Under the pieces are notes generated by a model, which made no database searches, was not told the origin of the DNA, and was given only the letters and a program-made list of their open reading frames with translations. 64,000 nt of DNA, from sequence record ON286972; one strand, given 5' to 3'. The translations under genes and the position numbers were made by a program. Origin of the DNA: Escherichia phage A4. Numbering within the stretch: position 1 is the stretch's first letter; the number at the start of each line of letters is the position of its first letter. Below, piece by piece: positions 2,397-46,327 of the stretch.

Positions 2397-2407
2397 GGTG
2401 AATTATA

Positions 2408-3036: not shown

Positions 3037-3100
3037 GAAGTGTCTGAGTCTATAATCTACCGTAGAGCACAAGGATGTGCTCATAACTCAAGGATGTTTT

Positions 3101-7779: not shown

Positions 7780-8139
7780 ATGAGTGATTATGTTGCATTC
7801 CTACATCGTTTTGGTAAAGCTGAAGAAAAGCACATCATTCGTCTACCAGCTTATGGTGAGAAAGACTGGTACAAAAGTACTATCAGCGTAGGTGCATTCC
7901 GTGACCGTGAAGCTGAATTCTTTCTCGGTAAGCAACATGAACGAGCAGTACTTTGCTCCCTTTGGCGTTTAGACGAATGGGATGAAGAGAATGCAAGAAC
8001 TGCGGTATCAATGCTTAAAATTGTTGGCATTGCAAACTATCAGCACCCATATGATCTATTACCTACGTTTACCCATGCTTCATTGTTTGACTTTTATAAA
8101 GCAATCGGGTATGATTATAAAAAGAAACGTTATATCTGA
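7780..8139 (+). CDS. hypothetical protein
   Basis: 119-aa ORF. Confidence 0.45.
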   Translation: MSDYVAFLHRFGKAEEKHIIRLPAYGEKDWYKSTISVGAFRDREAEFFLGKQHERAVLCSLWRLDEWDEENARTAVSMLKIVGIANYQHPYDLLPTFTHASLFDFYKAIGYDYKKKRYI

Positions 8140-8149
8140 GGATCAATCC

Positions 8150-8953
8150 ATGTCGAATCCAATCTGTAAGCATTGTTCAAAAACTAAATTCTACCATGAA
8201 CCACATACATTGAAATGTCCTAAACCTTCTCGTTCTCTTCTCGTCACTTATGAAGATGTTAATGTATATGATGAAGTAGTTTCTGAACCAAACGTTTTAG
8301 TTATTCCAGAAATCAATCAAACCGTAAGTACATTACTAGATTGGAAAGAACAGATTACCAATGTAGATGATTTTGTTATTCCGTTACATGACAAACAATG
8401 GGTTTTTGATACGATTTATAAAAATGCCGATGTTGATTGTGAAGAAGAAGCAGATGACCTAAAATGTGCATTAAACAATTGTGATGGAACTGTCGTTTTA
8501 GGTAAACCGGATACTGCAAATGATGGAACTTATCTAATGTTTGGTATGAAAACCAATATCGGTGAACTTGAAGATGATTATTGCCTTCTTGATAATATTA
8601 CATTAATAGAATGGAGTAAGCTTTCTAATTTAGAATTGATTGAAATTGGCACTTTTGAAAGTCATATGGATATTGATGAAAGTAAGAATAAAGGTATTAA
8701 TGCCTTTATGTCTGAAGTTATTGGGCGTTCATTGTATAGTCCCGATTCCGTTGATATCAAAACGACTGCTGATTGTAAAGCATTCCTAAAGCAAGAATAT
8801 GATGTTGAAAAAGCAAAACGCATTAAAAAAGAAAAATGGGGTCAAATCGAATACCGCTTATTTGAATCAGATGAAGGTAGACATTACACCTTAGTATCGT
8901 ATAACGATAAACTAATTTCTCATTACGCTTTTGCATATAACGAAGACTACTAA
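8150..8953 (+). CDS. hypothetical protein with N-terminal Cys-rich segment
   Basis: start moved to ATG 8150 (MSNPICKHCSK) with GAGGA 7 nt upstream; track ORF from 7982 overlaps previous gene. Confidence 0.5.
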   Translation: MSNPICKHCSKTKFYHEPHTLKCPKPSRSLLVTYEDVNVYDEVVSEPNVLVIPEINQTVSTLLDWKEQITNVDDFVIPLHDKQWVFDTIYKNADVDCEEEADDLKCALNNCDGTVVLGKPDTANDGTYLMFGMKTNIGELEDDYCLLDNITLIEWSKLSNLELIEIGTFESHMDIDESKNKGINAFMSEVIGRSLYSPDSVDIKTTADCKAFLKQEYDVEKAKRIKKEKWGQIEYRLFESDEGRHYTLVSYNDKLISHYAFAYNEDY

Positions 8954-21885: not shown

Positions 21886-22287
21886 ATGGATCTTGATGAT
21901 GTGTATAGCACCATAAGACAGATGGATTCGTATAAAAAAGTATATAGTGGTTACAAGAGTGATAAACAATTTTATGGAATCGGGGAGTATGATGTAATAT
22001 CATTCGAATACGATGATACTGGTGAAAGTTCCATTAATATTGTTTGCCCTCGTGACCGTGAAAATAACTTCATGTACGTTGAAATCAATAATGATGGTTT
22101 ACACTTTACTAAAATATTAAATGGTGGCAAACAATCTATTTCTCTGGATTTATCCGAAGAAGAAAAGTTCTTTCAAGAAGATACTATAATCAATCTTGGT
22201 TTTAGTTTATCAGAATACAAAGTTCTTCATAAAGATTTCATGAAGTACTATAATGGGTTTCTTAAGGAGCTAACATTACATCTATGA
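21886..22287 (+). CDS. hypothetical protein
   Basis: 133-aa ORF. Confidence 0.45.
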   Translation: MDLDDVYSTIRQMDSYKKVYSGYKSDKQFYGIGEYDVISFEYDDTGESSINIVCPRDRENNFMYVEINNDGLHFTKILNGGKQSISLDLSEEEKFFQEDTIINLGFSLSEYKVLHKDFMKYYNGFLKELTLHL

Positions 22288-23525
22288 ATAATAACAAATT
22301 TCTTGAACAAACAATTGTGAAGCACTTAGCAGGTTCACAAGCGTATGGAACCAGTACACCTGAAAGTGATACGGATTATCGTGGTATTTTTCTTGCTAAC
22401 AAAGAATTCATCCTTACGCCTTTTTATAATGTAAAGGAAGTTTCTGATTCAAGAGAAGAAGATACTAAATTCTATGAACTAAACCAGTACTTAAGACTAT
22501 ACACAGAGGCTAACCCAAATATCCTTGAATCACTATGGGTCGATCCTGAACACATCGTAGAAAGTACTGAGATCTATGATTATCTACGCACTTTCAATCA
22601 ACAATTGCTTAGCTCAAAGATTGCACACTCTTATACTGGTTATGCCTATAATCAGGTTAAGCGTATGTCTAATCACCACGGGTGGATGGATAAAGAGCGT
22701 ATTGCTGAAAAACGTCTAAATGAAATCTTAGAAGATTTTCCAGTAGATGAAACTTTAGCATGGATGTATGAAAACTTCCCACACTATTTGGTAGAACGTT
22801 TAGATACTTCTAAACTACATCCATTTAATGCTAAGAAAATAGATTTTGAAAAATACATGCGTGATACTTCATTGCAGTTAGTTTCAACTAATCCGTTGAA
22901 ACAGTATCATTTTGTACGTTTAGTACATAATTACAGTACTGATAAAGTACTAGACCGTGATTTCAACTTATTGGATTATAACAATGGGTACGAATTAATT
23001 CATTACGGTGAAAATATCTTTGGTGTTATTATCAATCCTAATGAAAGTACAGTTAACGCGGATGGTTCTTTACGTTATTTCAACAAAGAACGCAGTACTG
23101 AAGAATTGAAAGTACGACCTGAACTCATTGTTAAATTCAATGAAAAAGAATACAGTGAGAACAGTGAGAACCGTAAAAGTTATCACAAATGGAAAGAGAA
23201 TCGTAATGCTAAACGTGCAATTCTTGAATCCAAACACGGCTACGATTGCAAACATGCTATGCATACGATCAGACTTTTGAATACAGCCGAAGAAGCATTA
23301 CAAAGCGGTATTATTCTGGTGAAACGTCCTGATGCTGATATGCTAATGGATATTCGCAACGGTAAGTGGAAATATGAAGAAGTCATGGAGTACTTTAACG
23401 ATAAGGTAAAATATATTCGTGAAGTACTTTATCCTAAGTCAGTACTCCCGAAGAAACCAGATATTGCATTAGCTGCGAAAGTACTGTTAGATATTCGCGA
23501 AATGCAGTGGTACGGTAAGAAATAG
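22284..23525 (+). CDS. Pol-beta-superfamily nucleotidyltransferase-domain protein
   Basis: N-terminal GSQAYGTSTPESDTDYRG fits GS-x(9-13)-DxD nucleotidyltransferase signature; 413 aa. Confidence 0.45.
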   Translation: MNNNKFLEQTIVKHLAGSQAYGTSTPESDTDYRGIFLANKEFILTPFYNVKEVSDSREEDTKFYELNQYLRLYTEANPNILESLWVDPEHIVESTEIYDYLRTFNQQLLSSKIAHSYTGYAYNQVKRMSNHHGWMDKERIAEKRLNEILEDFPVDETLAWMYENFPHYLVERLDTSKLHPFNAKKIDFEKYMRDTSLQLVSTNPLKQYHFVRLVHNYSTDKVLDRDFNLLDYNNGYELIHYGENIFGVIINPNESTVNADGSLRYFNKERSTEELKVRPELIVKFNEKEYSENSENRKSYHKWKENRNAKRAILESKHGYDCKHAMHTIRLLNTAEEALQSGIILVKRPDADMLMDIRNGKWKYEEVMEYFNDKVKYIREVLYPKSVLPKKPDIALAAKVLLDIREMQWYGKK

Positions 23526-36568: not shown

Positions 36569-36702
36569 ACTTACATGTACAGAATGAAAGTTACCTTTTC
36601 AGTACTGAAAGTATTGTAGAAAGTCCGATGAGGCTTTTGCAAATGGCCTCATAAGCCCTCTTTGTAATTGCTCATCATAACACGCAAACAAAGGAGGCGT
36701 TT

Positions 36703-37629
36703 TTGACAATAGCGATACAAACACCTAAAACTAAGACAGCTATAGGCTTATTAGTTTCACTTGTTATCATCGCTGCGTTTGGATTTTATGGTTTTTCTCA
36801 ACATGATCGTGCATCATCATCGGGCGAAAGTCAGGTGCACAATTTAAAACCGCAAGTTACACAAATTCAAAAGCAGGAATTACCTAAAGGGTATACACCT
36901 AAAGTAGTTCCAGGCAGCGAGAAACATTATACTGTTGAATACGGTGATAGTTATCATTCGATAGCTAAGAAGTTTAAACCGCATAATGTGTTGTTTGAAG
37001 ATTACGTTACAGTATTGAAGAATATCAATCTTAATGCTAAACTTCATACATCGCAGGGTATCTTTATCCCAACAAAAGAGGATTTGAAAGACGTACTGTT
37101 ACCTGATGTGGTAGTACTTTTCGATTATAATGATCCTGAAATAGTTGCACACATCAAAGAAGCTGAAGGTTCAATTGAATTTCAGTCCAAGAACAAAAGA
37201 CGTTTACTTGGGGGAAAAGTTGGAGTTCCTTTCTACAATTCAAAATTTCATCCTTATAAGGATATGAAAGGTAATTATACAATAGGTTATGGACATTACT
37301 TAGGTAAGAACGAATCTGATGCAATTAAGTACAGAAACGGTATTACCAAAGCACAAGCACATAAACTATTACTTCAAGATTTGAAAAGGACATATAATGA
37401 CTTTACAACTCTAATGAAGAAAAAAAATGCAGTAAATCTTACAAAAGACCAACAACGTATTCTCTTTGACATGGCTTACACGATGGGTGTTGATAAGTTG
37501 GCCTCATTTAATAAACTATGGAGAAGTGCTGAAGCTGAAAATCATAAGAAGTTTAAAAGAGAAATCAAAAATTCCTTATGGTATAGGCAAGTAACAAACA
37601 GAGCGGATACTTTGTTAAGCTCAATCTAA
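36703..37629 (+). CDS. endolysin: signal-anchor + LysM-like + lysozyme domain
   Basis: TTG start after AAAGGAGG; N-terminal TM; YTVEYGDSYHSIAKKF LysM-like; NYTIGYGHYLG resembles T4-lysozyme TIGIGH core. Confidence 0.65.
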   Translation: MTIAIQTPKTKTAIGLLVSLVIIAAFGFYGFSQHDRASSSGESQVHNLKPQVTQIQKQELPKGYTPKVVPGSEKHYTVEYGDSYHSIAKKFKPHNVLFEDYVTVLKNINLNAKLHTSQGIFIPTKEDLKDVLLPDVVVLFDYNDPEIVAHIKEAEGSIEFQSKNKRRLLGGKVGVPFYNSKFHPYKDMKGNYTIGYGHYLGKNESDAIKYRNGITKAQAHKLLLQDLKRTYNDFTTLMKKKNAVNLTKDQQRILFDMAYTMGVDKLASFNKLWRSAEAENHKKFKREIKNSLWYRQVTNRADTLLSSI

Positions 37630-37643
37630 AAGGAAGGTGAAGT

Positions 37644-37976
37644 ATGCTAAATCTAGTTATTCAAGGTAATGTTGATATTACTCCAGCAATCCATGACGCA
37701 ATTCATCAAGAAGCAAACACTCTAAATAAATTTAGTGATTCTTCAGTACTGAATATTGGTGTTCATGTGAAAAAAGAGCATAAGACACAGTACGCAGTAA
37801 CTTTAACATCAGGTGGTAAGTCTGTTACTGCCGATGATGCAGATTTATACAAGGCGATTGTCGATTCATTCGAAAAAATGGAAACTGTATTCAGTAAAGA
37901 CAAAAGCATTAAATTGCACCGCCGAAACCATCCAGACCGTCCAGTTGTAGTTGATGTAACTGACGAAGAAGAGTAA
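37644..37976 (+). CDS. hypothetical protein
   Basis: 110-aa ORF, AAGGAAGGTGA ribosome-binding site. Confidence 0.45.
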   Translation: MLNLVIQGNVDITPAIHDAIHQEANTLNKFSDSSVLNIGVHVKKEHKTQYAVTLTSGGKSVTADDADLYKAIVDSFEKMETVFSKDKSIKLHRRNHPDRPVVVDVTDEEE

Positions 37977-37982
37977 TATAAT

Positions 37983-38012
37983 AAAGGGACAGATTAATTC
38001 TGTCCCTTTTCT
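37983..38012 (+). terminator. rho-independent terminator
   Basis: GGGACAG-loop-CTGTCCC then TTTT. Confidence 0.55.
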
Positions 38013-38027
38013 TATGGAGTTTTAATT

Positions 38028-38441
38028 ATGAATTATGCTTGGATGGAAATTGTAAAATCTCTCGTATCAACACATGATGTTGATTTACCAGATAGTCTAG
38101 TGTTTAATAGATGGTACTATCCAAATCCAGAGGACTGTAGGGTTGGAATTGGATTTTTTATTAATGATAAATCTAATTTGATTGGATTAATTGAAGATAT
38201 GAAATCCAACGCAGTATCAATCTCTATTGAGTTTAATGAAGACCACATAAAATACTACGACAATAAAATGGCAGAAGATGATGATGTTATAATCCCTGTA
38301 GATATAGACGAAGCTTCATTTTTTCAGTTATCATTGATTTATGATCTATCTAACATTACTTATGATAATGTGAAAGACCTTTTTATATTGTACAATAAAA
38401 TGTATAATTACTTTTTAAGACCTTTTTATATTGTACAATAA
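38028..38441 (+). CDS. hypothetical protein (C-terminus encoded by tandem repeat)
   Basis: 137-aa ORF; last ~20 codons lie inside the 43-bp tandem duplication. Confidence 0.4.
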   Translation: MNYAWMEIVKSLVSTHDVDLPDSLVFNRWYYPNPEDCRVGIGFFINDKSNLIGLIEDMKSNAVSISIEFNEDHIKYYDNKMAEDDDVIIPVDIDEASFFQLSLIYDLSNITYDNVKDLFILYNKMYNYFLRPFYIVQ

Positions 38442-38460
38442 AATGTATAATTACTTTTTA
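38375..38460 (+). repeat. perfect 43-bp tandem direct repeat (2 copies)
   Basis: AGACCTTTTTATATTGTACAATAAAATGTATAATTACTTTTTA at 38375-38417 and again at 38418-38460. Confidence 0.85.
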
Positions 38461-38476
38461 TAATGGAGGTATTGTA

Positions 38477-38662
38477 ATGGAATATACAATAGGTGCAATA
38501 GTATGTATCGCAGCATTATTAGGTGGCATTGGTGTGATGATTTACTTTGATGCAGAACCCAGTACTGAAATGGGTACAACCCTGGAACTCAAACCTGGCA
38601 TTAAGGTGAACGACTCTTACTGTTACGATCCACATAGTAATAAGTATGTGATTTGTTTATGA
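38477..38662 (+). CDS. small membrane protein
   Basis: N-terminal hydrophobic helix. Confidence 0.35.
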   Translation: MEYTIGAIVCIAALLGGIGVMIYFDAEPSTEMGTTLELKPGIKVNDSYCYDPHSNKYVICL

Positions 38663-39069
38663 AAAAGTTTAATATTAAACCGATATTTGATGCTATCGAA
38701 ATTAAATTGAAAGACCAACGAAAACCCGATGGTACTGGTTTATTCTTTAGTTTAGATAGAACCTACGTTGAAACACATGTATCAAGTTTTGATAGAACTG
38801 GTAATCTTTTCATCCGTTCATATAACATGTTTTATAGTGAAGATGTTTTTATGATAGATATCACTTTAGATGAAAGTATAGGTTTGATGTACATTGAAGA
38901 TGTTCAATCAAACGATCAACGAAACGGCACACTTCCTATTGGTGCTACCGAGGAAGAGTTTATGCAATATCAGTTCATTGATGATACCTTTGGTATTGAC
39001 TTTGTGACATATCAGAGTATAATGCGTGTATACGAACAGTATGAGGATTACGTAATTGGACGTTACTAA
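38653..39069 (+). CDS. hypothetical protein, paralog A
   Basis: C-terminal ..EEEFMQYQFIDDTFGIDFVTYQSIMRVYEQYE parallels next gene. Confidence 0.45.
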   Translation: MFMKKFNIKPIFDAIEIKLKDQRKPDGTGLFFSLDRTYVETHVSSFDRTGNLFIRSYNMFYSEDVFMIDITLDESIGLMYIEDVQSNDQRNGTLPIGATEEEFMQYQFIDDTFGIDFVTYQSIMRVYEQYEDYVIGRY

Positions 39070-39478
39070 AATACCCAAATTCAACGAAACGTTAAAGTAC
39101 TTTTCTGAACAAGAGTTCAGTACTGAAAGACGTGGTTTAGTCACATACAACCAATATCGCGTAATGTATACTAACCAGTTACAAGGAACAGTACGTATTA
39201 AAATCCGTAATGCATATGATGATGGTGATGAATTATTAATTATACTAAGAAAAAGTAAGATAGAACTACAATACCATAGATTTGATACTTCCGATGAGTT
39301 TGCATGGAATGTGTTAGAAAAGAAAGTAGGTTCATTGCCTGTAGTTGATGATGGACCTGAAACACTTGATCAGTACATGTTCATTGATGATACATTTAGT
39401 ATTGACTATTCTTCATTTCAGTATATACTATCTATACATAAACAATATGAATCCCGCTTGCGTGACAGATTAATTTAA
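39056..39478 (+). CDS. hypothetical protein, paralog B
   Basis: C-terminal ..LDQYMFIDDTFSIDYSSFQYILSIHKQYE parallels previous gene. Confidence 0.45.
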   Translation: MDVTKIPKFNETLKYFSEQEFSTERRGLVTYNQYRVMYTNQLQGTVRIKIRNAYDDGDELLIILRKSKIELQYHRFDTSDEFAWNVLEKKVGSLPVVDDGPETLDQYMFIDDTFSIDYSSFQYILSIHKQYESRLRDRLI

Positions 39479-39489
39479 TTGGAGGCTTT

Positions 39490-39612
39490 ATGATTGCAAT
39501 GTTAGAAGAAGATTGGGGTGTTTCTGAACAAGGAACCGACGAATATCAAGTTCCAGAATACAAGCCAAAAGGCTTCTGGGAAAGTCTGCGTGATTGGTTG
39601 ATGGGAGAATAA
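39490..39612 (+). CDS. small hypothetical protein (40 aa)
   Basis: GGAGG 5 nt upstream; below track cutoff. Confidence 0.2.
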   Translation: MIAMLEEDWGVSEQGTDEYQVPEYKPKGFWESLRDWLMGE

Positions 39613-39621
39613 GATTAGAAA

Positions 39622-40689
39622 ATGTATAAATTTTATTTTAATGAAAATAACGAGAAGGTATATTTCCATGAAGAATTAGGTATGCGTTTCGAATGGATGC
39701 GTCCCGAAGATTTATCACCAAAATTAATTAAAACATCAAAAACACCTAAAGAACATTTTGATGAAATAATAGAAAAAGGATATAATATTTTAGGATTTGC
39801 TATAACATCAAGTGATGAATGGAAATCTAGTTTTACAAGAACTGTTGTTGAAAAAGATGGTATTATATATACAAAAAGAAATATAAATGATATAAAAACG
39901 AAAGGTATGAAATATATCATTGGGAAATATGACAATGAAAATTATAGATATTATCTTTATAAGACTTCAAAAAGTCTAATGACTGGTGAATGTGAATTAC
40001 TTTTAGAACAACCAATAATTAAAGATAAAAGAACCAAATTAACTTATAAATGCTTAAAATGTGGTCACGTTGATGAAATGGAAATTAGTAATATACAAAG
40101 TGGTCAGGGTTGCTCTATTTGTCGATTTGAAAAAACCAGATTAGCACACGCATTCACCACCGCTGAATTTGTTGAACGAGCAAAAGAAATTCATGGTAAT
40201 GTATATAACTATTCAAAAGTCATCTACATTAATAGTAGCACTCATGTTGAAATAATTTGTAAAAAACATAATAATTCTTTTTATATCATTCCAAATTTTC
40301 ATATAGCAAAAAATAAAAATCAAGGTTGCCCAATATGCTCATCTGAACATACTGAATCCAGAGCTAGTAGAGAAATAACACGTTTTTTAATTGAAAATGG
40401 TATAAAATTTAATAAAGAACAAACATTTAGTGACTGTAAAAATAAAATGTTATTAAGATTTGATTTTTATTTGGTTGATTATGATATTTGTATTGAGTAT
40501 GATGGTAAACAACATTTTGAGAAATCACCTCATTGGGGTGGAGAAGATAAATTGAAAAACATCAAGGATAACGATACTATAAAGACACAATATTGTGAAA
40601 AGAATTTTATTAAATTAATACGTGTAACATATTATGAAGACCACTTAACTGTATTAAAAAAACATCTTTCAGAGGAAGGTATATTATGA
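39622..40689 (+). CDS. Zn-ribbon protein with C-terminal endonuclease-like domain (possible free-standing homing endonuclease)
   Basis: multiple CxxC pairs; C-terminal RFDFYLVDYDICIEYDGKQHF resembles PD-(D/E)xK/DUF559-type motif; gene markedly more AT-rich than neighbours. Confidence 0.35.
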   Translation: MYKFYFNENNEKVYFHEELGMRFEWMRPEDLSPKLIKTSKTPKEHFDEIIEKGYNILGFAITSSDEWKSSFTRTVVEKDGIIYTKRNINDIKTKGMKYIIGKYDNENYRYYLYKTSKSLMTGECELLLEQPIIKDKRTKLTYKCLKCGHVDEMEISNIQSGQGCSICRFEKTRLAHAFTTAEFVERAKEIHGNVYNYSKVIYINSSTHVEIICKKHNNSFYIIPNFHIAKNKNQGCPICSSEHTESRASREITRFLIENGIKFNKEQTFSDCKNKMLLRFDFYLVDYDICIEYDGKQHFEKSPHWGGEDKLKNIKDNDTIKTQYCEKNFIKLIRVTYYEDHLTVLKKHLSEEGIL

Positions 40690-41798
40690 AAAAGTATTTG
40701 GTGGGCGGCTATGTGAGGGACCGTTTAATGGGTATTCGTACAAAAGACAAAGATTATGTCATTGTCGGTGCTACCGAATCCGATATTAAGTACTTACAAA
40801 GTATTGGCTATAAGCAAGTAGGTAAGGATTTTCCCGTGTATCTAAGTCCAGAGGGTAATGAGCACGCATTGGCCCGTACCGAACGTAAAACTGGTACTGG
40901 TTACGGTGGCTTCGAAGTGAATACTAAAGGCGTGACACTAGAGCAAGATCTATACAGAAGGGATATTACGGTAAATAGCATAGCGTATGATCCAGTACTG
41001 CAAATTCACATCGACCCATACGGTGGTAAAGCTGATATCAAGAATAAAGTACTACGCCATGTATCCGAGCACTTCAAAGAAGATCCATTACGTGTATTAC
41101 GTCTAGCTCGCTTTGCTACGCGTTATTCTGATTTCTCTATACACGAGACTACTGAAGCACTTGCAATCGATATGGTAGCGTCTGGTGAGCTAAATCACCT
41201 TGTTCCAGACCGTGTTTATGTTGAATTTGAAAAAGCACTGTCAGAAGAAAAGCCAGCTAAGTTCCTTAAAACACTAAGTAAGTTGGGTTACTATGAAAAA
41301 GCATTTAATGCAACATTAACCAAAAAGTCATTGGAACTCATTGATCATATCTCTGATAATTGTACTGAAGCATATAAGCCATATTTCTTATGGTCTGTGC
41401 TTCTTGAGAAAGAAGAAGTTGGTGAGGATTCAGTACTGAATGGTGCTATTAAAATGCCCGTTAAGTACGTTAAATTCAGTAATTACATCAAACGTTTCCG
41501 TGATGATATCAAGGCATTCCGTAAAAAGACCCCAAATGAAATGGGACAATTATTACTGGATATGAATATCAAGAATAACGGCGGTGAAGAATTCCTTTAC
41601 AAAGTACTGGAATATTTTATTCTACGTAAAGAGATTGATTTAGACCTTGAAGATTTAATCATTAAGGTATATGATCGTTACACTGATGTAGTACTTCCAG
41701 ATATTCAACAACTGGTAAAAGACGGTGAGTTAGAAGCATCTGAAATCCGTGATTTTGTTTCAGATTTACGTTGTGAAGCAATTCAACAAATGTTTTAA
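40686..41798 (+). CDS. tRNA nucleotidyltransferase (CCA-adding enzyme) family protein
   Basis: N-terminal GGYVRDRLMG..DKDYV head-domain motif. Confidence 0.65.
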   Translation: MKKYLVGGYVRDRLMGIRTKDKDYVIVGATESDIKYLQSIGYKQVGKDFPVYLSPEGNEHALARTERKTGTGYGGFEVNTKGVTLEQDLYRRDITVNSIAYDPVLQIHIDPYGGKADIKNKVLRHVSEHFKEDPLRVLRLARFATRYSDFSIHETTEALAIDMVASGELNHLVPDRVYVEFEKALSEEKPAKFLKTLSKLGYYEKAFNATLTKKSLELIDHISDNCTEAYKPYFLWSVLLEKEEVGEDSVLNGAIKMPVKYVKFSNYIKRFRDDIKAFRKKTPNEMGQLLLDMNIKNNGGEEFLYKVLEYFILRKEIDLDLEDLIIKVYDRYTDVVLPDIQQLVKDGELEASEIRDFVSDLRCEAIQQMF

Positions 41799-41884
41799 AA
41801 CTCTGGGACAAGAGAACGACTTCTGATATAATAATTGTATCTGGGCATCATTGCTATTAAGAGATAAGATTATGCGTTATAGTT

Positions 41885-42301
41885 GTGGCATTATATTTTA
41901 TCGTGATGGTCAGATACTTGTTGGACACACAACACGGACAGAAGCATTGGGATTTACCAAAAGGTAAAACCGAGGGCAATGAAACATTTGCTGAAGCTGC
42001 TGTTCGTGAGTGCTATGAAGAAACAGGATTTGAGATTGATGAAAAGGATCTTCTCTTATTAGGTGATGTATCATACAGGAAAGGGAAAAGATTAGTTTTA
42101 TTTTTCTATACAGCTAAATACAAACCCGAACCGGATGAACTGAAGTGTAACAGTACTTATACCAATCGATATGGTAAAAGCCATCCAGAATTGGATAAAT
42201 TCATGTACATTGATGTTCAAGATTGTCAAAAGTATTTGACCGAACGAATGTGTAACAGTATAATTAAAGCTGTTAAATTGTTTCAAAAAAATAAAGGATA
42301 G
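41885..42301 (+). CDS. Nudix hydrolase (apparent frameshift at 5' end)
   Basis: perfect Nudix box GKTEGNETFAEAAVRECYEETGF; expected N-terminal strand MRYSCGIIFYRDGQILVGH is in the -1 frame starting ATG 41872. Confidence 0.5.
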   Translation: MALYFIVMVRYLLDTQHGQKHWDLPKGKTEGNETFAEAAVRECYEETGFEIDEKDLLLLGDVSYRKGKRLVLFFYTAKYKPEPDELKCNSTYTNRYGKSHPELDKFMYIDVQDCQKYLTERMCNSIIKAVKLFQKNKG

Positions 42302-42305
42302 TTAT

Positions 42306-42554
42306 ATGAAAGTGAAAATTTATGGTCGCACGACTGGTTGTAATTTCTGTGATACAGCAAAAGCAATTTGTGAGAACAATTCATTTGAAATGGATTTTAT
42401 CGATGTGGTTTCTGAAGGTATTGATGGTGCTAAACTATCAGAAATTTGCGGTGAGCCAGTTCGTCAAGTTCCACAAATTTTCGTAAATGATGAGTATGTT
42501 CCTGGTGGATGTACTGGTTTTGTTAACGGGCTAAAAGAAGGTCGCTGGAACTAA
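42306..42554 (+). CDS. glutaredoxin/thioredoxin-fold protein (NrdC-like)
   Basis: CNFC active-site motif near N-terminus, ~82 aa. Confidence 0.55.
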   Translation: MKVKIYGRTTGCNFCDTAKAICENNSFEMDFIDVVSEGIDGAKLSEICGEPVRQVPQIFVNDEYVPGGCTGFVNGLKEGRWN

Positions 42555-42793
42555 TGAATATCGATAAGGTATCATCACGAGCACGTGCATTGGCTGACAG
42601 TTTGGGAGTTAAATTTGAAACTCCAGATATCAACCAATCAAAACAAAAAGCTCAAAAGAAAATTCATGAAATGAAAGAATACACATCAAGACGTGAAGAA
42701 TACGATGCTGCTATTTCTCACATTATTGAAGTGTTTAGTAAAGATGATATTTTAGCATTTATTGCTTCACATGAGGTTGTAAAAAACCCCTAA
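42554..42793 (+). CDS. hypothetical protein
   Basis: 79-aa ORF, ATGA overlap. Confidence 0.4.
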   Translation: MNIDKVSSRARALADSLGVKFETPDINQSKQKAQKKIHEMKEYTSRREEYDAAISHIIEVFSKDDILAFIASHEVVKNP

Positions 42794-42828
42794 ATAATAT
42801 TGAAGAACAACAAGTTCTTCTTAACAAT

Positions 42829-43086
42829 TTGGGAGATACTATTATGCTCAGTTTTCGTGAACAATTAGCAAAAGGTCAATTTCAGACTAAAGCTCAAACA
42901 AATATTCCTAAAAAATCTGCATTCTTAGGAACAATTACGGAAGATGGTTATTGTGACTTCAATCCACCAGAAGATAGCTGGTATATTGAAAAAGACACAA
43001 AACGTAGTAATAGACTTCACAAAAGTACAATAGCAAGAAAGCATCGAAAAGAATTGAAGAAAATTCGTTTCGGTGAAGAAGAATAA
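42829..43086 (+). CDS. hypothetical basic protein
   Basis: 85-aa ORF. Confidence 0.4.
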   Translation: MGDTIMLSFREQLAKGQFQTKAQTNIPKKSAFLGTITEDGYCDFNPPEDSWYIEKDTKRSNRLHKSTIARKHRKELKKIRFGEEE

Positions 43087-43100
43087 CCTAATAATATAAA

Positions 43101-43130
43101 GGACTTGAGATTATCGAGTCCTTTTCTTTT
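43101..43130 (+). terminator. rho-independent terminator
   Basis: GGACTTGA-GATTA-TCGAGTCC (one wobble) then T-rich run. Confidence 0.5.
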
Positions 43131-43140
43131 CGGAGAACAC

Positions 43141-43617
43141 ATGATACATGAACATCACGGAAATCTGTTTGAATTATTCAGTACTGTAACTGATGATCAT
43201 ACTGCATTACATATTATAGCTCATGGTTGTAATGCTCAAGGTAAAATGGGTTCTGGTTTTGCAAAAGAACTCAGAATGCAGTACCCAAAGGCATATGATG
43301 ATTATAAAGAATATGAAAAGAGAATGGGTTTTCTAAGAACCGGACAAATTGCATATTCAGCAATTAATGATGATTTGATTATCGCAAACTGCATTACTCA
43401 AAAATGGTACGGAACTGATGGTGCAAAATACGTAAGCTATGATGCCATTGATGACGTTTTCATGCATTTGAATTTTTTCTGTAAAATTGAACGAAATGTT
43501 CATGTACACTTTCCGAAAATTGGAGCCGATTTGGGCGGTGGTAACTGGAACGTTATCAAAGAAATCATTGACCACAGGCTGGTTAATGCTGAAAAACATT
43601 TATATATTCTCAAATAA
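43141..43617 (+). CDS. macro-domain-like protein (ADP-ribose binding/processing)
   Basis: IIAHGCNAQGKMGSGFAKEL resembles macro motif NAAN..GGGV..AI; start set at ATG 43141. Confidence 0.4.
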   Translation: MIHEHHGNLFELFSTVTDDHTALHIIAHGCNAQGKMGSGFAKELRMQYPKAYDDYKEYEKRMGFLRTGQIAYSAINDDLIIANCITQKWYGTDGAKYVSYDAIDDVFMHLNFFCKIERNVHVHFPKIGADLGGGNWNVIKEIIDHRLVNAEKHLYILK

Positions 43618-43636
43618 ACAAAAGGACTTGACAAAA

Positions 43637-43945
43637 ATGACTATTACCGTTAAACTACTAAACATCAACAACGTTGGCCCAGTACTAGCAGTTCTACAAA
43701 CCGATGCTCCAGAAGCAGTAGTAGTTAACTACCCAGCACAGCTAGGTACTGACGAAAAAGGTGAAATCATTCTACGTGATTATCTAGAATTTATTAGTTC
43801 AGAAAAAGGTGTTATTTTCTTCAAATCTAACATCATCAGTATCAGTGATGCAAACCCTGCACTGGTTGATGCTTATGTTGAAGCAATTAAGACTCTAGAA
43901 GATAAGCCAGCGTTGATTGTCCCTGACAACAAAATCATCCTATAA
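43637..43945 (+). CDS. hypothetical protein
   Basis: start set at ATG 43637 (MTITVKLL); track ORF from 43487 overlaps previous gene. Confidence 0.45.
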   Translation: MTITVKLLNINNVGPVLAVLQTDAPEAVVVNYPAQLGTDEKGEIILRDYLEFISSEKGVIFFKSNIISISDANPALVDAYVEAIKTLEDKPALIVPDNKIIL

Positions 43946-43957
43946 TAGAGGTATAAA

Positions 43958-44335
43958 ATGGCTGCTAATGAAGTGAAAGCAAAAACTATTCAAGCTATCG
44001 TAGTACTGAAAGGTAAAACCCCATCACCAAAAGAATTGGTTATGGCTGGCATGACTATGCTACATCAGTACAACCCAGCATCCCCTAACTATGTTCAAGA
44101 ATATGAAGCCAAACAGTTTAAAGCTCATTGGGATTCATGGATTAAAGACAATGAACTGGAACAAGTTGTCTATGAAGCAGATGACATGGATGAAATGATG
44201 CAGATTGAATATCTTGCGAATCAGCAGTCAGTACCACTAAGTATGTTTGGTAATGGGGAAGAGGTTCTAGTACTCGGCCCCTTCACTAAAAAAGATATTG
44301 AACACATTGTCACTAACTGTACAAAGATAAGTTAG
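43958..44335 (+). CDS. hypothetical protein
   Basis: 125-aa ORF. Confidence 0.45.
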   Translation: MAANEVKAKTIQAIVVLKGKTPSPKELVMAGMTMLHQYNPASPNYVQEYEAKQFKAHWDSWIKDNELEQVVYEADDMDEMMQIEYLANQQSVPLSMFGNGEEVLVLGPFTKKDIEHIVTNCTKIS

Positions 44336-44547
44336 TGAGCGATCATCTTTTAACAGGTGTTTATAATCATAAATTAATAGTCGGGAATACTCATTACTGG
44401 ATTGAGCCAAATCAAGACTATATAATATACTATCATGATGGGAAACATATATATTCAGTTAGTATATTTGGTTTCCTTGATATGATAGATACTGAACACT
44501 TTGTTAACTTAGTTTATTTGCGTTGTTGGTACGATAGACTAAGCTAA
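44335..44547 (+). CDS. hypothetical protein
   Basis: 70-aa ORF. Confidence 0.35.
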   Translation: MSDHLLTGVYNHKLIVGNTHYWIEPNQDYIIYYHDGKHIYSVSIFGFLDMIDTEHFVNLVYLRCWYDRLS

Positions 44548-44598
44548 ATCAATAGCACCTCTAAATAATGTATATAAACATTAAAGAGGTGCTTTTTT

Positions 44599-45390
44599 AT
44601 GTCATATGACTATATGGGTGGAAATCCAGATGCCCCAAATTACGATCACCGTGAAAAATTAAAAGATGTGATTACACAAATGTTGGGTGCTGGTGCTGTT
44701 GAAGTTGAAATTACTGATGGACAATTAGAAATCGCAATCGATAATGCGGTATCAAACTACAGAGCATGGAGTTCTGCATCAAAAGAAGAAGCTTTTTTAA
44801 GCATGAAATTCTATGATTCTCAATCAGTTTACATGCTACCAACTGAAGTAGAAATTGTTAAGAAAATTTATCGTTATGGTAATGGTTATTTGAGTTCTGG
44901 TAGTGGTAACTCGGTTGACCCATTTTCAATTGCATTTACAAACACATATCTACTAACGTCTGCTCGCAACGCTGGTGGTTATGATTTAACAACCTATGAC
45001 TTCAGTTTCCAGTTTCAGGAATTAGTAGGTCGTATGTTTGGACGTGAGATTATTTTCCAGTTTAATCCCATGACTAAGAAACTGGTTATTGACCGTGATA
45101 TTCGCGGCACAGAAGAAGTACTGGTTCATGTGTATCATAACATCCCAGAACCACTACTATTCCAACGTCAAATGAGTTATCCGTGGCTTCGTGATTGGGC
45201 TTTATCGGAAGCGATGATTATGTTAGGTCGCAACCGTGCTAAGTTTGCTTCTTTGCCTGGACCACAAGGAACATTTTCAATGGATGGTGATACACTTCGT
45301 AATGAAGGTATGCAACTCCAGGAACAACTTAAAGAACAGTTGAAGAGATACAAAGATGGTGGTGAACCACTTGGTATGATTATTGGTTAA
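44599..45390 (+). CDS. hypothetical protein (possibly tail/neck-associated)
   Basis: 263-aa ORF upstream of sheath gene. Confidence 0.4.
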   Translation: MSYDYMGGNPDAPNYDHREKLKDVITQMLGAGAVEVEITDGQLEIAIDNAVSNYRAWSSASKEEAFLSMKFYDSQSVYMLPTEVEIVKKIYRYGNGYLSSGSGNSVDPFSIAFTNTYLLTSARNAGGYDLTTYDFSFQFQELVGRMFGREIIFQFNPMTKKLVIDRDIRGTEEVLVHVYHNIPEPLLFQRQMSYPWLRDWALSEAMIMLGRNRAKFASLPGPQGTFSMDGDTLRNEGMQLQEQLKEQLKRYKDGGEPLGMIIG

Positions 45391-45400
45391 AATAAAAAAA

Positions 45401-45424
45401 AGACTCCATGTTGGGGTCTTTTTT
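45401..45424 (+). terminator. rho-independent terminator
   Basis: AGACTCC-loop-GGGGTCT then TTTTTT, A-run upstream. Confidence 0.5.
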
Positions 45425-45440
45425 CATATACGGTGATATA

Positions 45441-45698
45441 ATGACAATTGAATATGCAAAATTCAGATGTGGAAAATTAAGCGACAATTATTTCGAATCA
45501 GAACAGTACTGGCGATTTATCAAAAATGCATTAGTAGATGTATTCACCAGGGATGTAATTAACGCATGGGCAAGTATATGCAGGGATGATAATGGAAAAA
45601 CATTTTATGTTGTATATGTGTCAGTATACAACGGTAATGAAACTATTATTGATATAGTTAGAAGCTTAGTTGGTGATGAATATATGAAGGAAGTGTAA
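45441..45698 (+). CDS. hypothetical protein
   Basis: start uncertain (ATG 45441 vs track 45408 inside terminator hairpin). Confidence 0.3.
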   Translation: MTIEYAKFRCGKLSDNYFESEQYWRFIKNALVDVFTRDVINAWASICRDDNGKTFYVVYVSVYNGNETIIDIVRSLVGDEYMKEV

Positions 45699-45700
45699 CT

Positions 45701-46327
45701 ATGGAAAGAAAAATCGTAGCCATCAATGGCTCAATAGGAAGTGGTAAAGATACATACGCTAAAACATTCATCGATAATGGATATACCCGTATGTCGTTTG
45801 CAAAGAACCTGAAAGATTCAGTTGCAGCTATTTTTGGCTGGGACAGGGAAATGCTAGAAGGAACTACTAAAGAAGGTCGTGCTATTCGTGAACAACCGGA
45901 TCAGTACTGGTGTAATAAATTAGGACGTGATGATGTTTCACCACGTTGGGTACTGCAAAATTACGGTACTAATGTAGTTCGTCGTTATTTGCATAATGAC
46001 ATTTGGGTATTCAGTTTAGAACGTTCTATGATGGAAATAGAAGGTAACATTATCATTACTGATTGTCGTTTTCCAAATGAATTGAAAATGATTCGTGAAA
46101 ATAACGGTATCATCATTGAAGTTCAACGCAATTTACCATTCTGGTATGGTCTAGCAGCATCATACAATAAAGGTGATATCCAAATGAAACCAGTTGAACT
46201 GGAATCAGTACATGAATCTGAATGGGCATGGATTGGTATTAACAACCCACATTATATTATCAAGAATAATGGAACTATAAAAGACCTAGAAAACAAAGCA
46301 CTGGATATTATTTATACGAAAAACTGA
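45701..46327 (+). CDS. P-loop kinase, deoxynucleoside-monophosphate-kinase-like
   Basis: INGSIGSGKDT resembles T4 gp1 SGVKRSGKDT P-loop; ~208 aa. Confidence 0.45.
   Translation: MERKIVAINGSIGSGKDTYAKTFIDNGYTRMSFAKNLKDSVAAIFGWDREMLEGTTKEGRAIREQPDQYWCNKLGRDDVSPRWVLQNYGTNVVRRYLHNDIWVFSLERSMMEIEGNIIITDCRFPNELKMIRENNGIIIEVQRNLPFWYGLAASYNKGDIQMKPVELESVHESEWAWIGINNPHYIIKNNGTIKDLENKALDIIYTKN

What the first reader, a model, noticed from the sequence alone, without database searches (positions are those of the whole stretch)
43141..43617. Macro-like domain protein
The motif NAQGKMGSGFAKEL resembles the macro-domain ADP-ribose-binding loop. Macro domains hydrolyse O-acetyl-ADP-ribose (the sirtuin product) and remove protein or nucleic-acid ADP-ribosylation, fitting the Sir2 and Nudix genes in this window.
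Basis: partly seen in the sequence, partly recalled or inferred. Interest (0 to 1): 0.4.

Follow-up and report, generated by a model that had tools for sequence, protein, structure and literature searches.

The report
Phage macrodomain, likely anti-DarT2 enzyme
This is a real 158-residue macrodomain (ADP-ribose-removing) gene of an Asteriusvirus-type jumbo phage; relatives already carry that annotation, and it most likely strips ADP-ribose that the bacterial DarT2 toxin puts on phage DNA.

Summary
Window 43141-43617 (+) is an intact 158-aa ORF under strong purifying selection (dN/dS 0.08 against its PBECO4 orthologue), and it contains the quoted motif.

It is a macrodomain. The AlphaFold2 model has pLDDT 94 and matches BT1257 (2FG1) at TM 0.83. 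A profile of the family hits the BT1257, SCO6735, Poa1p, DarG and TARG1 structures at E 5e-27 to 4e-11.

The window comes from an Asteriusvirus-like jumbo phage. The PBECO4 orthologue (gp028) is already annotated "macro domain-containing protein".

The protein belongs to the TARG1/DarG/SCO6735 (ALC1-like) class, not the MacroD/OAADPr-deacetylase class. At the catalytic position it has an invariant Gln (Q87) where DarG and TARG1 have Lys. SCO6735 (Gln85, essential for cleaving thymidine-linked ADP-ribose on DNA) and T4 Tk.4 also have Gln there. Tk.4 was recently named AdfM, and deleting it sensitises T4 to DarTG2.

Best reading, by homology only: a Gln-type DNA ADP-ribosylglycohydrolase that counters DarT2.

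The proposed link to Sir2 is weak. Sir2 lies 41 kb away in its own Sir2-Nudix-cREC-PIN/PhoH cluster.

This is a new member of a known kind, of low-to-moderate interest.

The parts
43141..43617 (+). Macrodomain gene (158 aa plus stop); orthologue of Escherichia phage PBECO4 gp028
   Evidence: ORF and translation. PHROG 335 at 1.6e-43. PDB sequence and profile hits. AF2 pLDDT 94.2 and Foldseek TM 0.83 to 2FG1. PBECO4 annotation 'macro domain-containing protein'. dN/dS 0.08.
43222..43272 (+). H28-G-C-N31-A-Q-G-K-M-G37-S-G39-F...L44: conserved His/Asn and the Gly-x-Gly phosphate-binding loop.
   Evidence: H28, N31 and G39 are invariant in 42 homologues. N31 aligns with SCO6735 Asn27 and the DarG/PhiKZ AdfM Asn, whose mutation lowers activity.
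43387..43401 (+). N83-C-I-T-Q87: catalytic-position motif, with Gln in place of the DarG K80 / TARG1 K84 lysine
   Evidence: N83 and Q87 are invariant, 42 of 42. Q87 aligns with SCO6735 Gln85, BT1257 Gln, T4 Tk.4 Gln, and Lys in DarG and PhiKZ gp104. SCO6735 Q85A is inactive.
43408..43446 (+). Y90-G-T-D-G-A-K96-Y-V-S-Y100-D-A: family-specific conserved 'mobile' loop after the Gln, with a near-invariant Lys96
   Evidence: Conservation counts. The only lower-confidence stretch of the model, block 91-100 at pLDDT 76. Loop length is intermediate between SCO6735/BT1257 and DarG/Tk.4.
43513..43548 (+). P125-K-I-G128-A-D130-L-G-G133-G-N-W136: second (substrate-binding) glycine-rich loop
   Evidence: P125, G128, L131 and G133 are invariant. 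The loop aligns with PRIGCGLAGG(K/T)W of BT1257 and SCO6735. D130 occupies the position of SCO6735 Gly128.
43098..43134 (+). Terminator-like hairpin (11-pair stem, 5-nt loop) plus T-rich tail, immediately upstream of the gene
   Evidence: Scan hit. The hairpin is retained in PBECO4 and SD-1_S14 with a different stem sequence.
43132..43136 (+). GGAGA ribosome-binding site, 5 nt before the ATG
   Evidence: Read directly from the sequence. It is conserved in PBECO4 and SD-1_S14.

Best explanation
The gene encodes a stand-alone macrodomain ADP-ribosyl(glyco)hydrolase. It belongs to the ALC1-like class (TARG1/DarG/SCO6735), and within it to the glutamine-type subclass shared by SCO6735, BT1257 and T4 Tk.4.

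Proposed mechanism:
1. The Asn31 / Gly37-x-Gly39 loop and the Pro125...Gly128...Gly133 loop clamp the diphosphate and distal ribose of ADP-ribose.
2. Gln87, held in place by Asn31, positions the distal ribose.
3. The N-glycosidic bond to a thymine base is then hydrolysed by a backbone-positioned water, as proposed for SCO6735.
4. The conserved basic, flexible loop 90-102 (Lys96) helps hold single-stranded DNA.

In infection the enzyme would remove ADP-ribose that the host DarT2 toxin of DarTG2 systems places on phage ssDNA, so that replication can continue. That is the role shown genetically for T4 Tk.4/AdfM.

Shown here: gene integrity, fold, class, the residue equivalences, and homology to Tk.4 and SCO6735.

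Inferred: the substrate (thymidine-linked ADP-ribose on DNA) and the anti-DarTG2 role.
For: Fold and class:
- AF2 pLDDT 94.2, pTM 0.90.
- Foldseek top hits are BT1257 (TM 0.83), Poa1p, SCO6735, DarG and TARG1.
- Family profile against PDB: BT1257 4.9e-27, SCO6735 1.2e-20, Poa1p 1e-15, DarG 2e-13, TARG1 4e-11.
- DarG models are hit in NCBIfam (1.4e-7) and PADLOC (1.8e-10).

Residue equivalences:
- Q87 = SCO6735 Gln85 and N31 = Asn27. Both are invariant in 42 homologues.
- SCO6735 Q85A and N27S lose activity on DarT-modified DNA, and SCO6735 rescues DarT toxicity.
- SCO6735 was inactive on guanine-linked and 2'-OH-linked RNA ADP-ribose, and in the results also on 5'-phosphate-linked ADP-ribose.

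Link to T4 Tk.4:
- 31% identity over 135 aa, E 1e-12.
- hhalign probability 99.6%, E 6e-24.
- Same HGCN / MGSG / TQ / GNW motifs and the same ranking of PDB hits.
- A tk.4 knockout sensitises T4 to DarTG2 (bioRxiv 10.1101/2025.11.20.689424).
- A second phage macrodomain, PhiKZ gp104, removes DarT2 ADP-ribose from DNA in vitro (PMC13309987).

Other support:
- A 46%-identical family member lies in a T5-like contig beside the anti-Gabija gene Gad2 and other early accessory genes.
- The acidic pI of 6.4 is no obstacle, because Tk.4 (5.9) and PhiKZ AdfM (5.05) are similar.
Against: - No experiment exists on this protein or on any Asteriusvirus orthologue. No paper links Asteriusvirus macrodomains to DarTG.
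- Identity is only about 31% to Tk.4 and 24-27% to BT1257 and SCO6735, and macrodomain substrate range shifts easily.
- The evidence for Tk.4 is genetic and comes from a preprint. Its biochemistry is not shown.
- D130 replaces the Gly equivalent to SCO6735 Gly128, whose G128E mutant has reduced activity. The position varies within the family: D 17, G 17, V 4 of 42.
- SCO6735 Lys34 is Ser38 here, although a neighbouring K/R35 is present in 30 of 42.
- The conserved gene neighbourhood is rich in tRNA and translation functions (HPF, CCA-adding enzyme, Nudix, YqeY, PTH2) rather than DNA functions.
- The gene follows a conserved terminator-like hairpin, and its time of expression is unknown.
Confidence: 0.55

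Rival explanations
1. Small-molecule ADP-ribose clean-up linked to RNA repair. In this reading the protein is a Poa1p-like ADP-ribose-1''-phosphate (or ADPr>p / O-acyl-ADP-ribose) processing enzyme. It would dispose of by-products of NAD-dependent 2'-phosphate removal by the phage sirtuin system, or by a Tpt1-like enzyme, during tRNA repair. This is the nearest version of the first reader's idea.
For: - Poa1p structures are strong hits (profile E 1e-15, Foldseek rank 3).
- His28 matches Poa1p His23, a residue mutated in deposited structures.
- The gene sits in a block conserved down to about 40% identity that holds HPF, CCA-adding enzyme, Nudix, Grx, YqeY and PTH2.
- The window also carries a Sir2-Nudix-cREC-PIN/PhoH cluster and an RlaP nucleotidyltransferase, both tied to RNA repair.
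- T4 Tk.4 and PHROG 335 have historically been labelled 'phosphatase (A1pp motif)'.
Against: - Poa1p lacks the two residues that are invariant here. N83 corresponds to Leu and Q87 to Ser. The equivalents of Poa1p Ser30 and Phe152 are Lys35 and Gly132.
- BT1257 and SCO6735 are closer than Poa1p by 5-12 orders of magnitude in E-value.
- Sir2 is 41 kb away, and the published analysis stresses that this sirtuin clade is not coupled to Macro genes.
- The synteny is shared by one viral lineage, so it may reflect descent rather than function.
- The T4 homologue has a demonstrated DarTG2 phenotype.
Confidence: 0.18
2. Protein or RNA de-mono-ADP-ribosylation. In this reading the enzyme reverses ADP-ribose placed on host or phage proteins, or on RNA. 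The sources could be host defence ARTs (for example CmdT on mRNA) or the phage's own ADP-ribosyltransferases, so that it acts as an eraser tuning those modifications.
For: - SCO6735 and TARG1 also remove ADP-ribose from glutamate-modified proteins.
- Macro and ART genes co-occur in myoviruses and may be packaged into virions.
- The gene lies next to the neck/tail structural module.
- The neighbourhood is translation-related.
Against: - No Alt-like ART was detected in the window by tblastn.
- SCO6735 is inactive on 2'-OH-linked and guanine-linked RNA ADP-ribose.
- In SCO6735, Gln85 was critical for the DNA substrate, and the paper infers a different mechanism for protein substrates.
- No known phage macrodomain has been shown to have this role.
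Confidence: 0.12
3. Degradation or sequestration of ADP-ribose-derived immune signals, such as Thoeris gcADPR or His-ADPR and other TIR/Sir2 products. This is the role generally proposed for phage Macro domains by comparative genomics.
For: [quoted passage not shown]
- One family member weakly matches ThsA_Macro.
- A T5-like family member neighbours the SLOG-like cpYpsA and Gad2.
Against: - This is a prediction only. No macrodomain has been shown to cleave Thoeris signals.
- The closest characterised relatives act on macromolecular ADP-ribose.
- Only 1 of 42 members gives the ThsA_Macro match, at E 1.8e-4.
Confidence: 0.08
4. Non-catalytic ADP-ribose reader or DarT-binding inhibitor. In this reading the protein is a binding module without hydrolase activity.
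For: - The canonical Lys is absent.
- D130 sits where G128E impairs SCO6735.
- Catalytically dead SCO6735 still inhibits DarT by interaction.
Against: - The Gln/Asn pair that is essential in SCO6735 is invariant here.
- Strong purifying selection acts on all active-site loops.
- SCO6735, with the same Gln, is the most active enzyme of its class on T-ADPr DNA.
Confidence: 0.05

Closest known systems
Escherichia phage PBECO4 gp028 (YP_009150342) and other Asteriusvirus orthologues (slurp01, Sharanji, Ecwhy_1, SD-1_S14)
   Same: Same gene at the same locus: CCA-adding enzyme, Nudix, Grx, two small ORFs, macro, then the neck and sheath genes. Same 158-aa length. 84-90% amino-acid identity. Already annotated 'macro domain-containing protein', 'Macro domain protein', 'Appr-1-p processing' or 'phosphatase'.
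   Different: About 15% nucleotide divergence, so the window phage is a distinct relative. No functional work exists on any of these orthologues.
Phage T4 Tk.4 = AdfM (anti-DarT factor Macrodomain; bioRxiv 10.1101/2025.11.20.689424)
   Same: Stand-alone phage macrodomain of about 155 aa. Shares the AHGCN, MGSG, N-x-x-TQ and P-[KR]-IGA-x-x-G-x-GNW motifs, including Gln at the catalytic position. Same ranking of PDB relatives. Same PHROG 335.
   Different: Only 31% identity. Tk.4 has a shorter loop after the Gln (9 residues against 13) and lacks the YG-x-DG-x-KYVSYDA motif. Its genomic context differs (the tk-vs early region). Tk.4 has Gly where this protein has D130.
Streptomyces coelicolor SCO6735 (PDB 5E3B) and Bacteroides BT1257 (PDB 2FG1/2AFC)
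   Same: These are the closest solved structures: E 1e-20 to 5e-27, TM 0.76-0.83. They share the Gln-type active site (Gln85 = Q87, Asn27 = N31, His = H28) and a longer mobile loop than DarG. SCO6735 hydrolyses thymidine-linked ADP-ribose on ssDNA and neutralises DarT.
   Different: They are cellular proteins and basic (pI 8.7-10 against 6.4). Lys34 corresponds to Ser38 and Gly128 to Asp130. The mobile-loop sequence is unrelated. Identity is 24-27%.
DarG2 antitoxin macrodomain (PDB 5M31/5M3E/5M3I) and PhiKZ gp104 AdfM (PMC13309987)
   Same: Same fold and class, with the conserved Asn and both glycine loops. The predicted biological outcome is the same: removal of DarT2 ADP-ribose from DNA.
   Different: These are lysine-type (P-T-K motif) and this protein is glutamine-type. 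PhiKZ gp104 scores 132.9 bits on the PADLOC DarG model against 38.8 here. Only a 44-aa local alignment links gp104 to this protein. DarG carries an extra DarT-binding domain, and PhiKZ AdfM is imported into a phage nucleus.
Yeast Poa1p ADP-ribose-1''-phosphate phosphatase (PDB 6LFQ-6LFU)
   Same: Significant sequence and fold match (E 1e-15, Foldseek rank 3). Shares the H-x-C-N motif and the glycine loop.
   Different: Poa1p lacks N83 and Q87, has a roughly 20-residue insertion, and uses different candidate catalytic residues (Ser30, Phe152) that are not conserved here.

Membership tests
Macro domain superfamily (Pfam PF01661) | Significant match to macrodomain sequence profiles | tested here: met
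   This single sequence is below the Pfam cutoff (17.5 against 22 bits, E 0.004). However, 35 of 42 homologues match (best 3.7e-12). The family profile hits macrodomain crystal structures at 4.9e-27 to 4e-11.
Macro domain superfamily (Pfam PF01661) | Three-layer alpha/beta/alpha macro fold | tested here: met
   AF2 pLDDT 94.2, pTM 0.90. Foldseek TM 0.83 to 2FG1, and the top 50 PDB hits are almost all macrodomains. BFVD hits are phage and viral macrodomains.
Macro domain superfamily (Pfam PF01661) | Conserved Asn plus two glycine-rich ADP-ribose-binding loops | tested here: met
   N31, G37, G39, P125, G128 and G133 align with the same residues in ADP-ribose-bound DarG and Poa1p and in SCO6735 and BT1257. 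Most are invariant in the family.
Macro domain superfamily (Pfam PF01661) | Binds ADP-ribose | not testable with these tools
   Needs ITC, DSF or a co-crystal.
   Loop 1 is NAQGKMGSGF and loop 2 is GADLGGGNW, so there is no N-GGV-GIFG signature. YmdB is absent from the sequence hits at E<=10 and ranks 19th by fold at TM 0.68.
DarG2 / TARG1 lysine-type hydrolases (includes PhiKZ-type AdfM) | Catalytic Lys in the T-K motif (DarG K80, TARG1 K84) | tested here: not met
   The position is Gln87, invariant 42 of 42. The DarG models match only weakly (31-39 bits against 133 bits for PhiKZ gp104).
SCO6735/BT1257 glutamine-type subclass of ALC1-like macrodomains | Gln at the Lys-equivalent position, stabilised by the conserved Asn | tested here: met
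   Q87 = Gln85 and N31 = Asn27, by pairwise HMMER alignment and by MAFFT. Both are invariant.
SCO6735/BT1257 glutamine-type subclass of ALC1-like macrodomains | Extended mobile loop after the Gln, with basic residues | tested here: inconclusive
   13 residues lie between the Gln and the conserved Tyr here, against 14-15 in SCO6735 and BT1257, 11 in DarG and 9 in Tk.4. Near-invariant K96 is present, but the loop sequence is unrelated.
SCO6735/BT1257 glutamine-type subclass of ALC1-like macrodomains | Gly128 and Lys34 equivalents | tested here: not met
   Gly128 corresponds to Asp130 (D 17, G 17, V 4 of 42). Lys34 corresponds to Ser38, with K/R at the neighbouring position 35 in 30 of 42.
SCO6735/BT1257 glutamine-type subclass of ALC1-like macrodomains | Hydrolyses thymidine-linked ADP-ribose on ssDNA | not testable with these tools
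   Needs a gel-shift assay on a DarT2-modified oligonucleotide.
AdfM, T4 Tk.4 type (anti-DarTG2 factor) | Homology to T4 Tk.4 over the whole domain, with shared active-site motifs | tested here: met
   BLASTP 31% over 135 aa, E 1e-12. hhalign probability 99.6%, E 6e-24. Both are in PHROG 335. Motifs are shared.
AdfM, T4 Tk.4 type (anti-DarTG2 factor) | Protects the phage from DarTG2 | not testable with these tools
   Shown only for T4 tk.4, by transposon screen and clean knockout, in a preprint.
Poa1p-like ADP-ribose-1''-phosphate phosphatase | Conservation of the Poa1p residues probed by mutation (His23, Ser30, Phe152) | tested here: inconclusive
   The His is conserved (H28). Ser30 corresponds to Lys35 and Phe152 to Gly132. 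Conversely, Poa1p lacks N83 and Q87. The Poa1p structure paper was not in the library.

The most novel reading that the evidence does not exclude
The Asteriusvirus/Rak2-like macrodomains may form a distinct glutamine-type subfamily. They carry their own invariant loop (YG-x-DG-x-KYVSYDA) and a lineage-specific acidic residue (D130). They are fixed for a long evolutionary span inside a tRNA and translation-maintenance block: HPF, CCA-adding enzyme, Nudix, Grx, YqeY, PTH2. Under this reading their real substrate is not DarT2-modified DNA. It would instead be ADP-ribosylated RNA or tRNA, or ADP-ribose-phosphate by-products of NAD-dependent RNA repair. That would tie them in trans to the phage's sirtuin-cREC-Nudix-PIN system and define a new substrate class for this macrodomain clade.
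Probability: 0.15. Interest if true: 0.5.

Novelty: new member of a known kind. Interest (0 to 1): 0.2.

Why it matters
DarTG2 is a widespread toxin-antitoxin defence in Enterobacteria. Phage macrodomains that erase its DNA mark were reported only in 2025-2026, for T4 Tk.4 and PhiKZ gp104.

Placing the Asteriusvirus gene in the glutamine-type (SCO6735/Tk.4) branch has three consequences:
- It gives a testable function for a gene conserved across roughly 50 jumbo coliphage, Klebsiella and Salmonella phage genomes, some of which are considered for therapy.
- It shows that the two proteins now both called 'AdfM' are chemically different recruitments, Gln-type and Lys-type.
- It corrects the legacy 'phosphatase' label.

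As a finding in this window it is ordinary. It is a correctly spotted, already annotated domain.

Tried and rejected
- **Orthology with PhiKZ AdfM/DarG.** Rejected. There is only a 44-aa local match, the catalytic residue is Lys rather than Gln, and the DarG model scores 39 bits here against 133 bits for gp104.
- **MacroD/YmdB-type OAADPr deacetylase.** Rejected on motifs and hit ranking.
- **Functional operon with Sir2.** Rejected. Sir2 is 41 kb away in a separate, conserved Sir2-Nudix-cREC-PIN/PhoH cluster.
- **Companion anti-DarT1 NADAR (T4 30.3/AdfN) or Alt-like ART in the window.** tblastn found nothing below E 2.5. The phage-wide NADAR search showed no record over 300 kb among the 60 sampled rows, but that does not settle absence.
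- **The 11-mer AAAGGACTTGA.** It flanks the gene on both sides and was checked as a possible regulatory motif. There are 5 matches against 1.9 expected, and 9 of 100 shuffles do as well, so it is not significant.
- **Sigma-70-like promoter for the gene.** None lies between the hairpin and the ATG, and promoter-like sites in the region are no more frequent than in shuffles.
- **The longer TTG start at 43105, and the overlapping ORFs 43357-43599 (-) and 43487-43945 (+).** All are spurious when compared with homologues and annotation.
- **The Poa1p structure paper.** It is not in the held library, so the Poa1p catalytic residues are taken only from the PDB entry titles.
- **Asteriusvirus literature.** It contains no statement on the macrodomain.
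- **Coordinates of the AF2 model.** They were not available to scripts, so no docking or electrostatics could be done.
Full report
**Observation.** Window 43141-43617 (+) is an uninterrupted ORF running from ATG to TAA and encoding 158 aa. A GGAGA ribosome-binding site sits 5 nt upstream, and the quoted motif NAQGKMGSGFAKEL is residues 31-44. The mechanically longer TTG-initiated ORF from 43105 begins inside an upstream hairpin. Homologues and the PBECO4 annotation all start at the equivalent 'MI...', so 43141 is the real start. The overlapping ORFs on either strand have no support. Against the PBECO4 and SD-1_S14 orthologues (85% nucleotide identity) dN/dS is 0.08, so this is a protein-coding gene under strong purifying selection.

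**Where the window comes from.** Megablast of 42000-45000 finds 49 phage genomes of 310-386 kb from Escherichia, Klebsiella and Salmonella, at 83-84% identity over 91% of the query. These include PBECO4, slurp01, Sharanji and G17, and PBECO4 is classified in the genus Asteriusvirus. The orthologue in PBECO4 (gp028, YP_009150342) occupies the same position and has the same length. RefSeq annotates it 'macro domain-containing protein'. Other records call it 'Macro domain protein', 'Appr-1-p processing domain protein' or 'phosphatase'. The domain assignment is therefore already public.

**Is it a macrodomain?** Yes.
- The single sequence is just under the Pfam Macro threshold (E 0.004, 17.5 against 22 bits). 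However, 35 of 42 homologues match (best 3.7e-12).
- The sequence hits PHROG 335 at 1.6e-43.
- It hits the crystal structures of BT1257 (8.5e-14), SCO6735 (1.4e-9), Poa1p (6e-8) and DarG (2e-3).
- A profile of 42 homologues (alignment A1) raises these to 4.9e-27, 1.2e-20, 1e-15 and 2e-13, and adds TARG1 at 4e-11.
- AlphaFold2 on A1 gives pLDDT 94.2 and pTM 0.90, with the expected alternating beta/alpha pattern.
- Foldseek returns BT1257 first (TM 0.83), then Poa1p, SCO6735, DarG and TARG1, followed by coronavirus and YmdB macrodomains.
- Against predicted viral structures the top hit is Tk.4 of Acinetobacter phage 133.
- It is the only macrodomain gene in the window.

**Which kind of macrodomain?** A MAFFT alignment of this protein with T4 Tk.4, BT1257, SCO6735, Poa1p, two DarG macrodomains and PhiKZ gp104 agrees with the pairwise HMMER alignment. 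It gives these equivalences:
- N31 aligns with the Asn conserved in all eight sequences (SCO6735 Asn27).
- G37-x-G39 and P125...G128...G133 form the two glycine loops.
- Q87 aligns with SCO6735 Gln85, and with Gln in BT1257 and T4 Tk.4. DarG and PhiKZ gp104 have Lys at this position (DarG K80).

Across 42 homologues H28, N31, G39, N83, Q87, G91, Y100, P125, G128, L131 and G133 are invariant. The MacroD signature (N-GGV-GIFG) is absent. The protein therefore belongs to the ALC1-like (TARG1/DarG/SCO6735) class, in the glutamine-type subclass.

For SCO6735 the literature shows:
- Q85A and N27S abolish hydrolysis of thymidine-linked ADP-ribose on DarT-modified DNA.
- The enzyme rescues DarT toxicity and is more active than DarG or TARG1 on this substrate (PMC9411070).
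- It is inactive on guanine-linked and 2'-OH-linked RNA ADP-ribose (PMC11833690).

**The phage precedent.** T4 gene tk.4 has long been annotated 'phosphatase; A1pp motif'. It was the single hit in a transposon screen of T4 on a DarTG2-expressing host. A clean knockout sensitised T4 to DarTG2, and the gene was named adfM (bioRxiv 10.1101/2025.11.20.689424).

This protein and Tk.4 compare as follows:
- They align over 135 residues at 31% identity, E 1e-12.
- The family profile matches Tk.4 with 99.6% probability, E 6e-24.
- They share AHGCN, MGSG, N-x-x-TQ and P-[KR]-IGA-x-x-G-x-GNW.
- Tk.4 has the same order of PDB relatives, with BT1257 first.

A different protein, PhiKZ gp104, was independently named AdfM and shown biochemically to remove DarT2 ADP-ribose from DNA (PMC13309987). 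It is a lysine-type, DarG-like macrodomain. It matches DarG at 9e-25 and scores 132.9 bits on the PADLOC DarG model against 38.8 here. It shares only a 44-residue local match with this protein. All three phage proteins fall in the broad PHROG 335. The present gene is thus a relative of the T4-type AdfM and not of the PhiKZ-type AdfM.

**Mechanism proposed.**
1. The Asn31/GxG loop and the second glycine loop bind the ADP-ribose diphosphate and distal ribose.
2. Gln87, oriented by Asn31, positions the ribose for water-mediated cleavage of the thymine-ribose bond, as proposed for SCO6735.
3. The flexible, conserved loop 90-102 may contact ssDNA. It has near-invariant K96 and is the only region of reduced model confidence.
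4. The biological role would be to erase DarT2 marks from replicating phage DNA.

Shown here are the fold, the class, the residue equivalences and the homology. The substrate and the anti-defence role are inferred.

**Caveats.**
- Identity to every characterised relative is at most 31%.
- D130 occupies the position of SCO6735 Gly128, where G128E reduces activity. Within the family this position is D in 17, G in 17 and V in 4 of 42. It is therefore tolerant rather than catalytic, but it is a real difference.
- SCO6735 Lys34 is Ser38 here.
- The loop sequence YG-x-DG-x-KYVSYDA is specific to this family.
- No literature addresses the Asteriusvirus protein.

**Context.** The gene lies at the junction between a block of small accessory genes and the neck/tail module. 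The local order is CCA-adding enzyme (40686-41798), Nudix (41885-42301), glutaredoxin (42306-42554), two small ORFs, macro, a small ORF, a weak PTH2-like ORF (43958-44335), gp13-like neck protein, dNMP kinase and sheath.

Look-ups of family members that are 39-55% identical (Xanthomonas phage XaC1 and several metagenomic contigs) show the same order: lysozyme, HPF, CCA enzyme, Nudix, Grx, YqeY, two unannotated ORFs, macro, two unannotated ORFs, PTH2, gp13, DNMK, sheath. This long-lived synteny with tRNA and translation-related genes is the main support for an RNA-linked rival function. It is confined to one viral lineage, though, and may simply be inherited.

In contrast, a 46%-identical member in a T5-like 127-kb contig sits among early accessory genes, including the anti-Gabija gene Gad2, cpYpsA and an HD_4 protein. 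That placement fits a counter-defence role.

Sir2 (1099-1851, PF02146, 2e-19) and an overlapping Nudt16-like Nudix (1848-2396) do exist. They form a tight cluster with a cREC domain protein (2408-2740) and a PIN+PhoH protein (3077-4540). This is exactly configuration (1) of the sirtuin-centred RNA-repair neighbourhoods predicted by Iyer et al. 2022, who remark that these sirtuins are not coupled to a Macro gene (PMC9503650). The cluster is 41 kb from the macro gene. A trans relationship, with the macrodomain processing ADPr-phosphate by-products, cannot be excluded, but neither linkage nor subfamily supports it.

**Regulatory features.** A terminator-like hairpin (43098-43124, 11 pairs) with a T-rich tail lies 16 nt upstream of the ATG. 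PBECO4 and SD-1_S14 keep a hairpin at the same place with a different stem sequence, so the structure itself appears to be selected. No sigma-70-like promoter lies between it and the gene. The gene must be expressed by read-through or from an unrecognised phage promoter, and this remains unexplained. An 11-mer shared by both flanks is not statistically enriched.

**Other checks.** No T4-type NADAR (AdfN) or Alt-like ADP-ribosyltransferase is detectable in the window. Homologues of this macrodomain occur in 1,787 phage records at E<=1e-5, in line with the published estimate that 41% of myoviruses and 56% of jumbo phages carry a Macro domain.

**Verdict.** The gene is already annotated as a macrodomain in close relatives, so this is a new member of a known kind. 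The added value is a sharper assignment: a glutamine-type ALC1-like macrodomain, homologous to T4 Tk.4/AdfM and SCO6735, and most likely an anti-DarT2 DNA ADP-ribosylglycohydrolase (confidence about 0.55). An RNA-repair or small-molecule role is the main alternative.

Noticed in passing
window 1099-4540 (+): A tight cluster of Sir2 (1099-1851), an overlapping Nudt16-like Nudix (1848-2396), a cREC cyclic-phosphate-processing receiver domain (2408-2740), a 99-aa ORF and a PIN+PhoH protein (3077-4540). It matches the sirtuin-centred NAD-dependent RNA-repair neighbourhood predicted for jumbo phages in PMC9503650. As far as found, that system has not been tested experimentally.
   Followed up: partly
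window about 36700-46300 (+); loci L006, L007, L011, L012, L013: The block lysozyme, HPF/RaiA, CCA-adding enzyme, Nudix, glutaredoxin, (YqeY), macro, PTH2-like, gp13 neck and dNMP kinase, followed by the sheath gene, is conserved in order even where the macro proteins are only 39-55% identical. It is an unusually stable module of translation and tRNA-maintenance genes next to the tail genes. The window and PBECO4 lack the YqeY gene seen in the more distant relatives.
   Followed up: partly
window 43098-43134 (+): A terminator-like hairpin with a T-run lies 16 nt before the macro ATG. PBECO4 and SD-1_S14 keep a hairpin at the same spot with a different stem sequence (GGACTCTG...CAGAGTCC), so the structure is conserved. 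How the macro gene is transcribed past it is unclear.
   Followed up: partly
window 39622-40689 (+): A 355-aa ORF with a DUF4379 treble-clef zinc finger / CapR-like match sits directly upstream of the CCA-adding enzyme gene. PBECO4 has only a 136-nt gap with a 40-aa ORF at that place. This looks like a roughly 1.07-kb insertion specific to this phage, possibly a mobile or homing element.
   Followed up: no
L008 / L009 (ENA contigs k141_93252 and k141_128693), gene at 5001-5465: A 46%-identical member of this macrodomain family lies in a T5-like phage contig. Its neighbours include Gad2 (anti-Gabija), cpYpsA (SLOG-like), an HD_4 protein, dCMP deaminase and a T5 A2-like gene. This looks like an early accessory or anti-defence neighbourhood.
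   Followed up: no
window 22284-23525 (+): A 413-aa protein matches RlaP, the 'RNA repair pathway DNA polymerase beta family' nucleotidyltransferase (PF10127, 2e-17). It is another RNA-repair-associated gene in this window.
   Followed up: no
window 7982-8953 (+): The PBECO4 counterpart (gp086) is annotated 'WGR domain-containing protein', a domain typical of PARPs. The window ORF gave no Pfam hit at E<=0.01, so the annotation could not be confirmed here.
   Followed up: partly
window 43528-43530 (codon for D130): Asp occupies the position of the glycine that is conserved in SCO6735 (Gly128), BT1257, DarG and Tk.4. Among 42 homologues the position is D in 17, G in 17 and V in 4. The Asp is characteristic of the Asteriusvirus-proximal clade, and its effect on activity or specificity is unknown.
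   Followed up: partly
literature: Two non-orthologous phage macrodomains, T4 Tk.4 (Gln-type) and PhiKZ gp104 (Lys-type, DarG-like), have both been named AdfM. PHROG 335 lumps both together with this protein under the label 'phosphatase'.
   Followed up: yes
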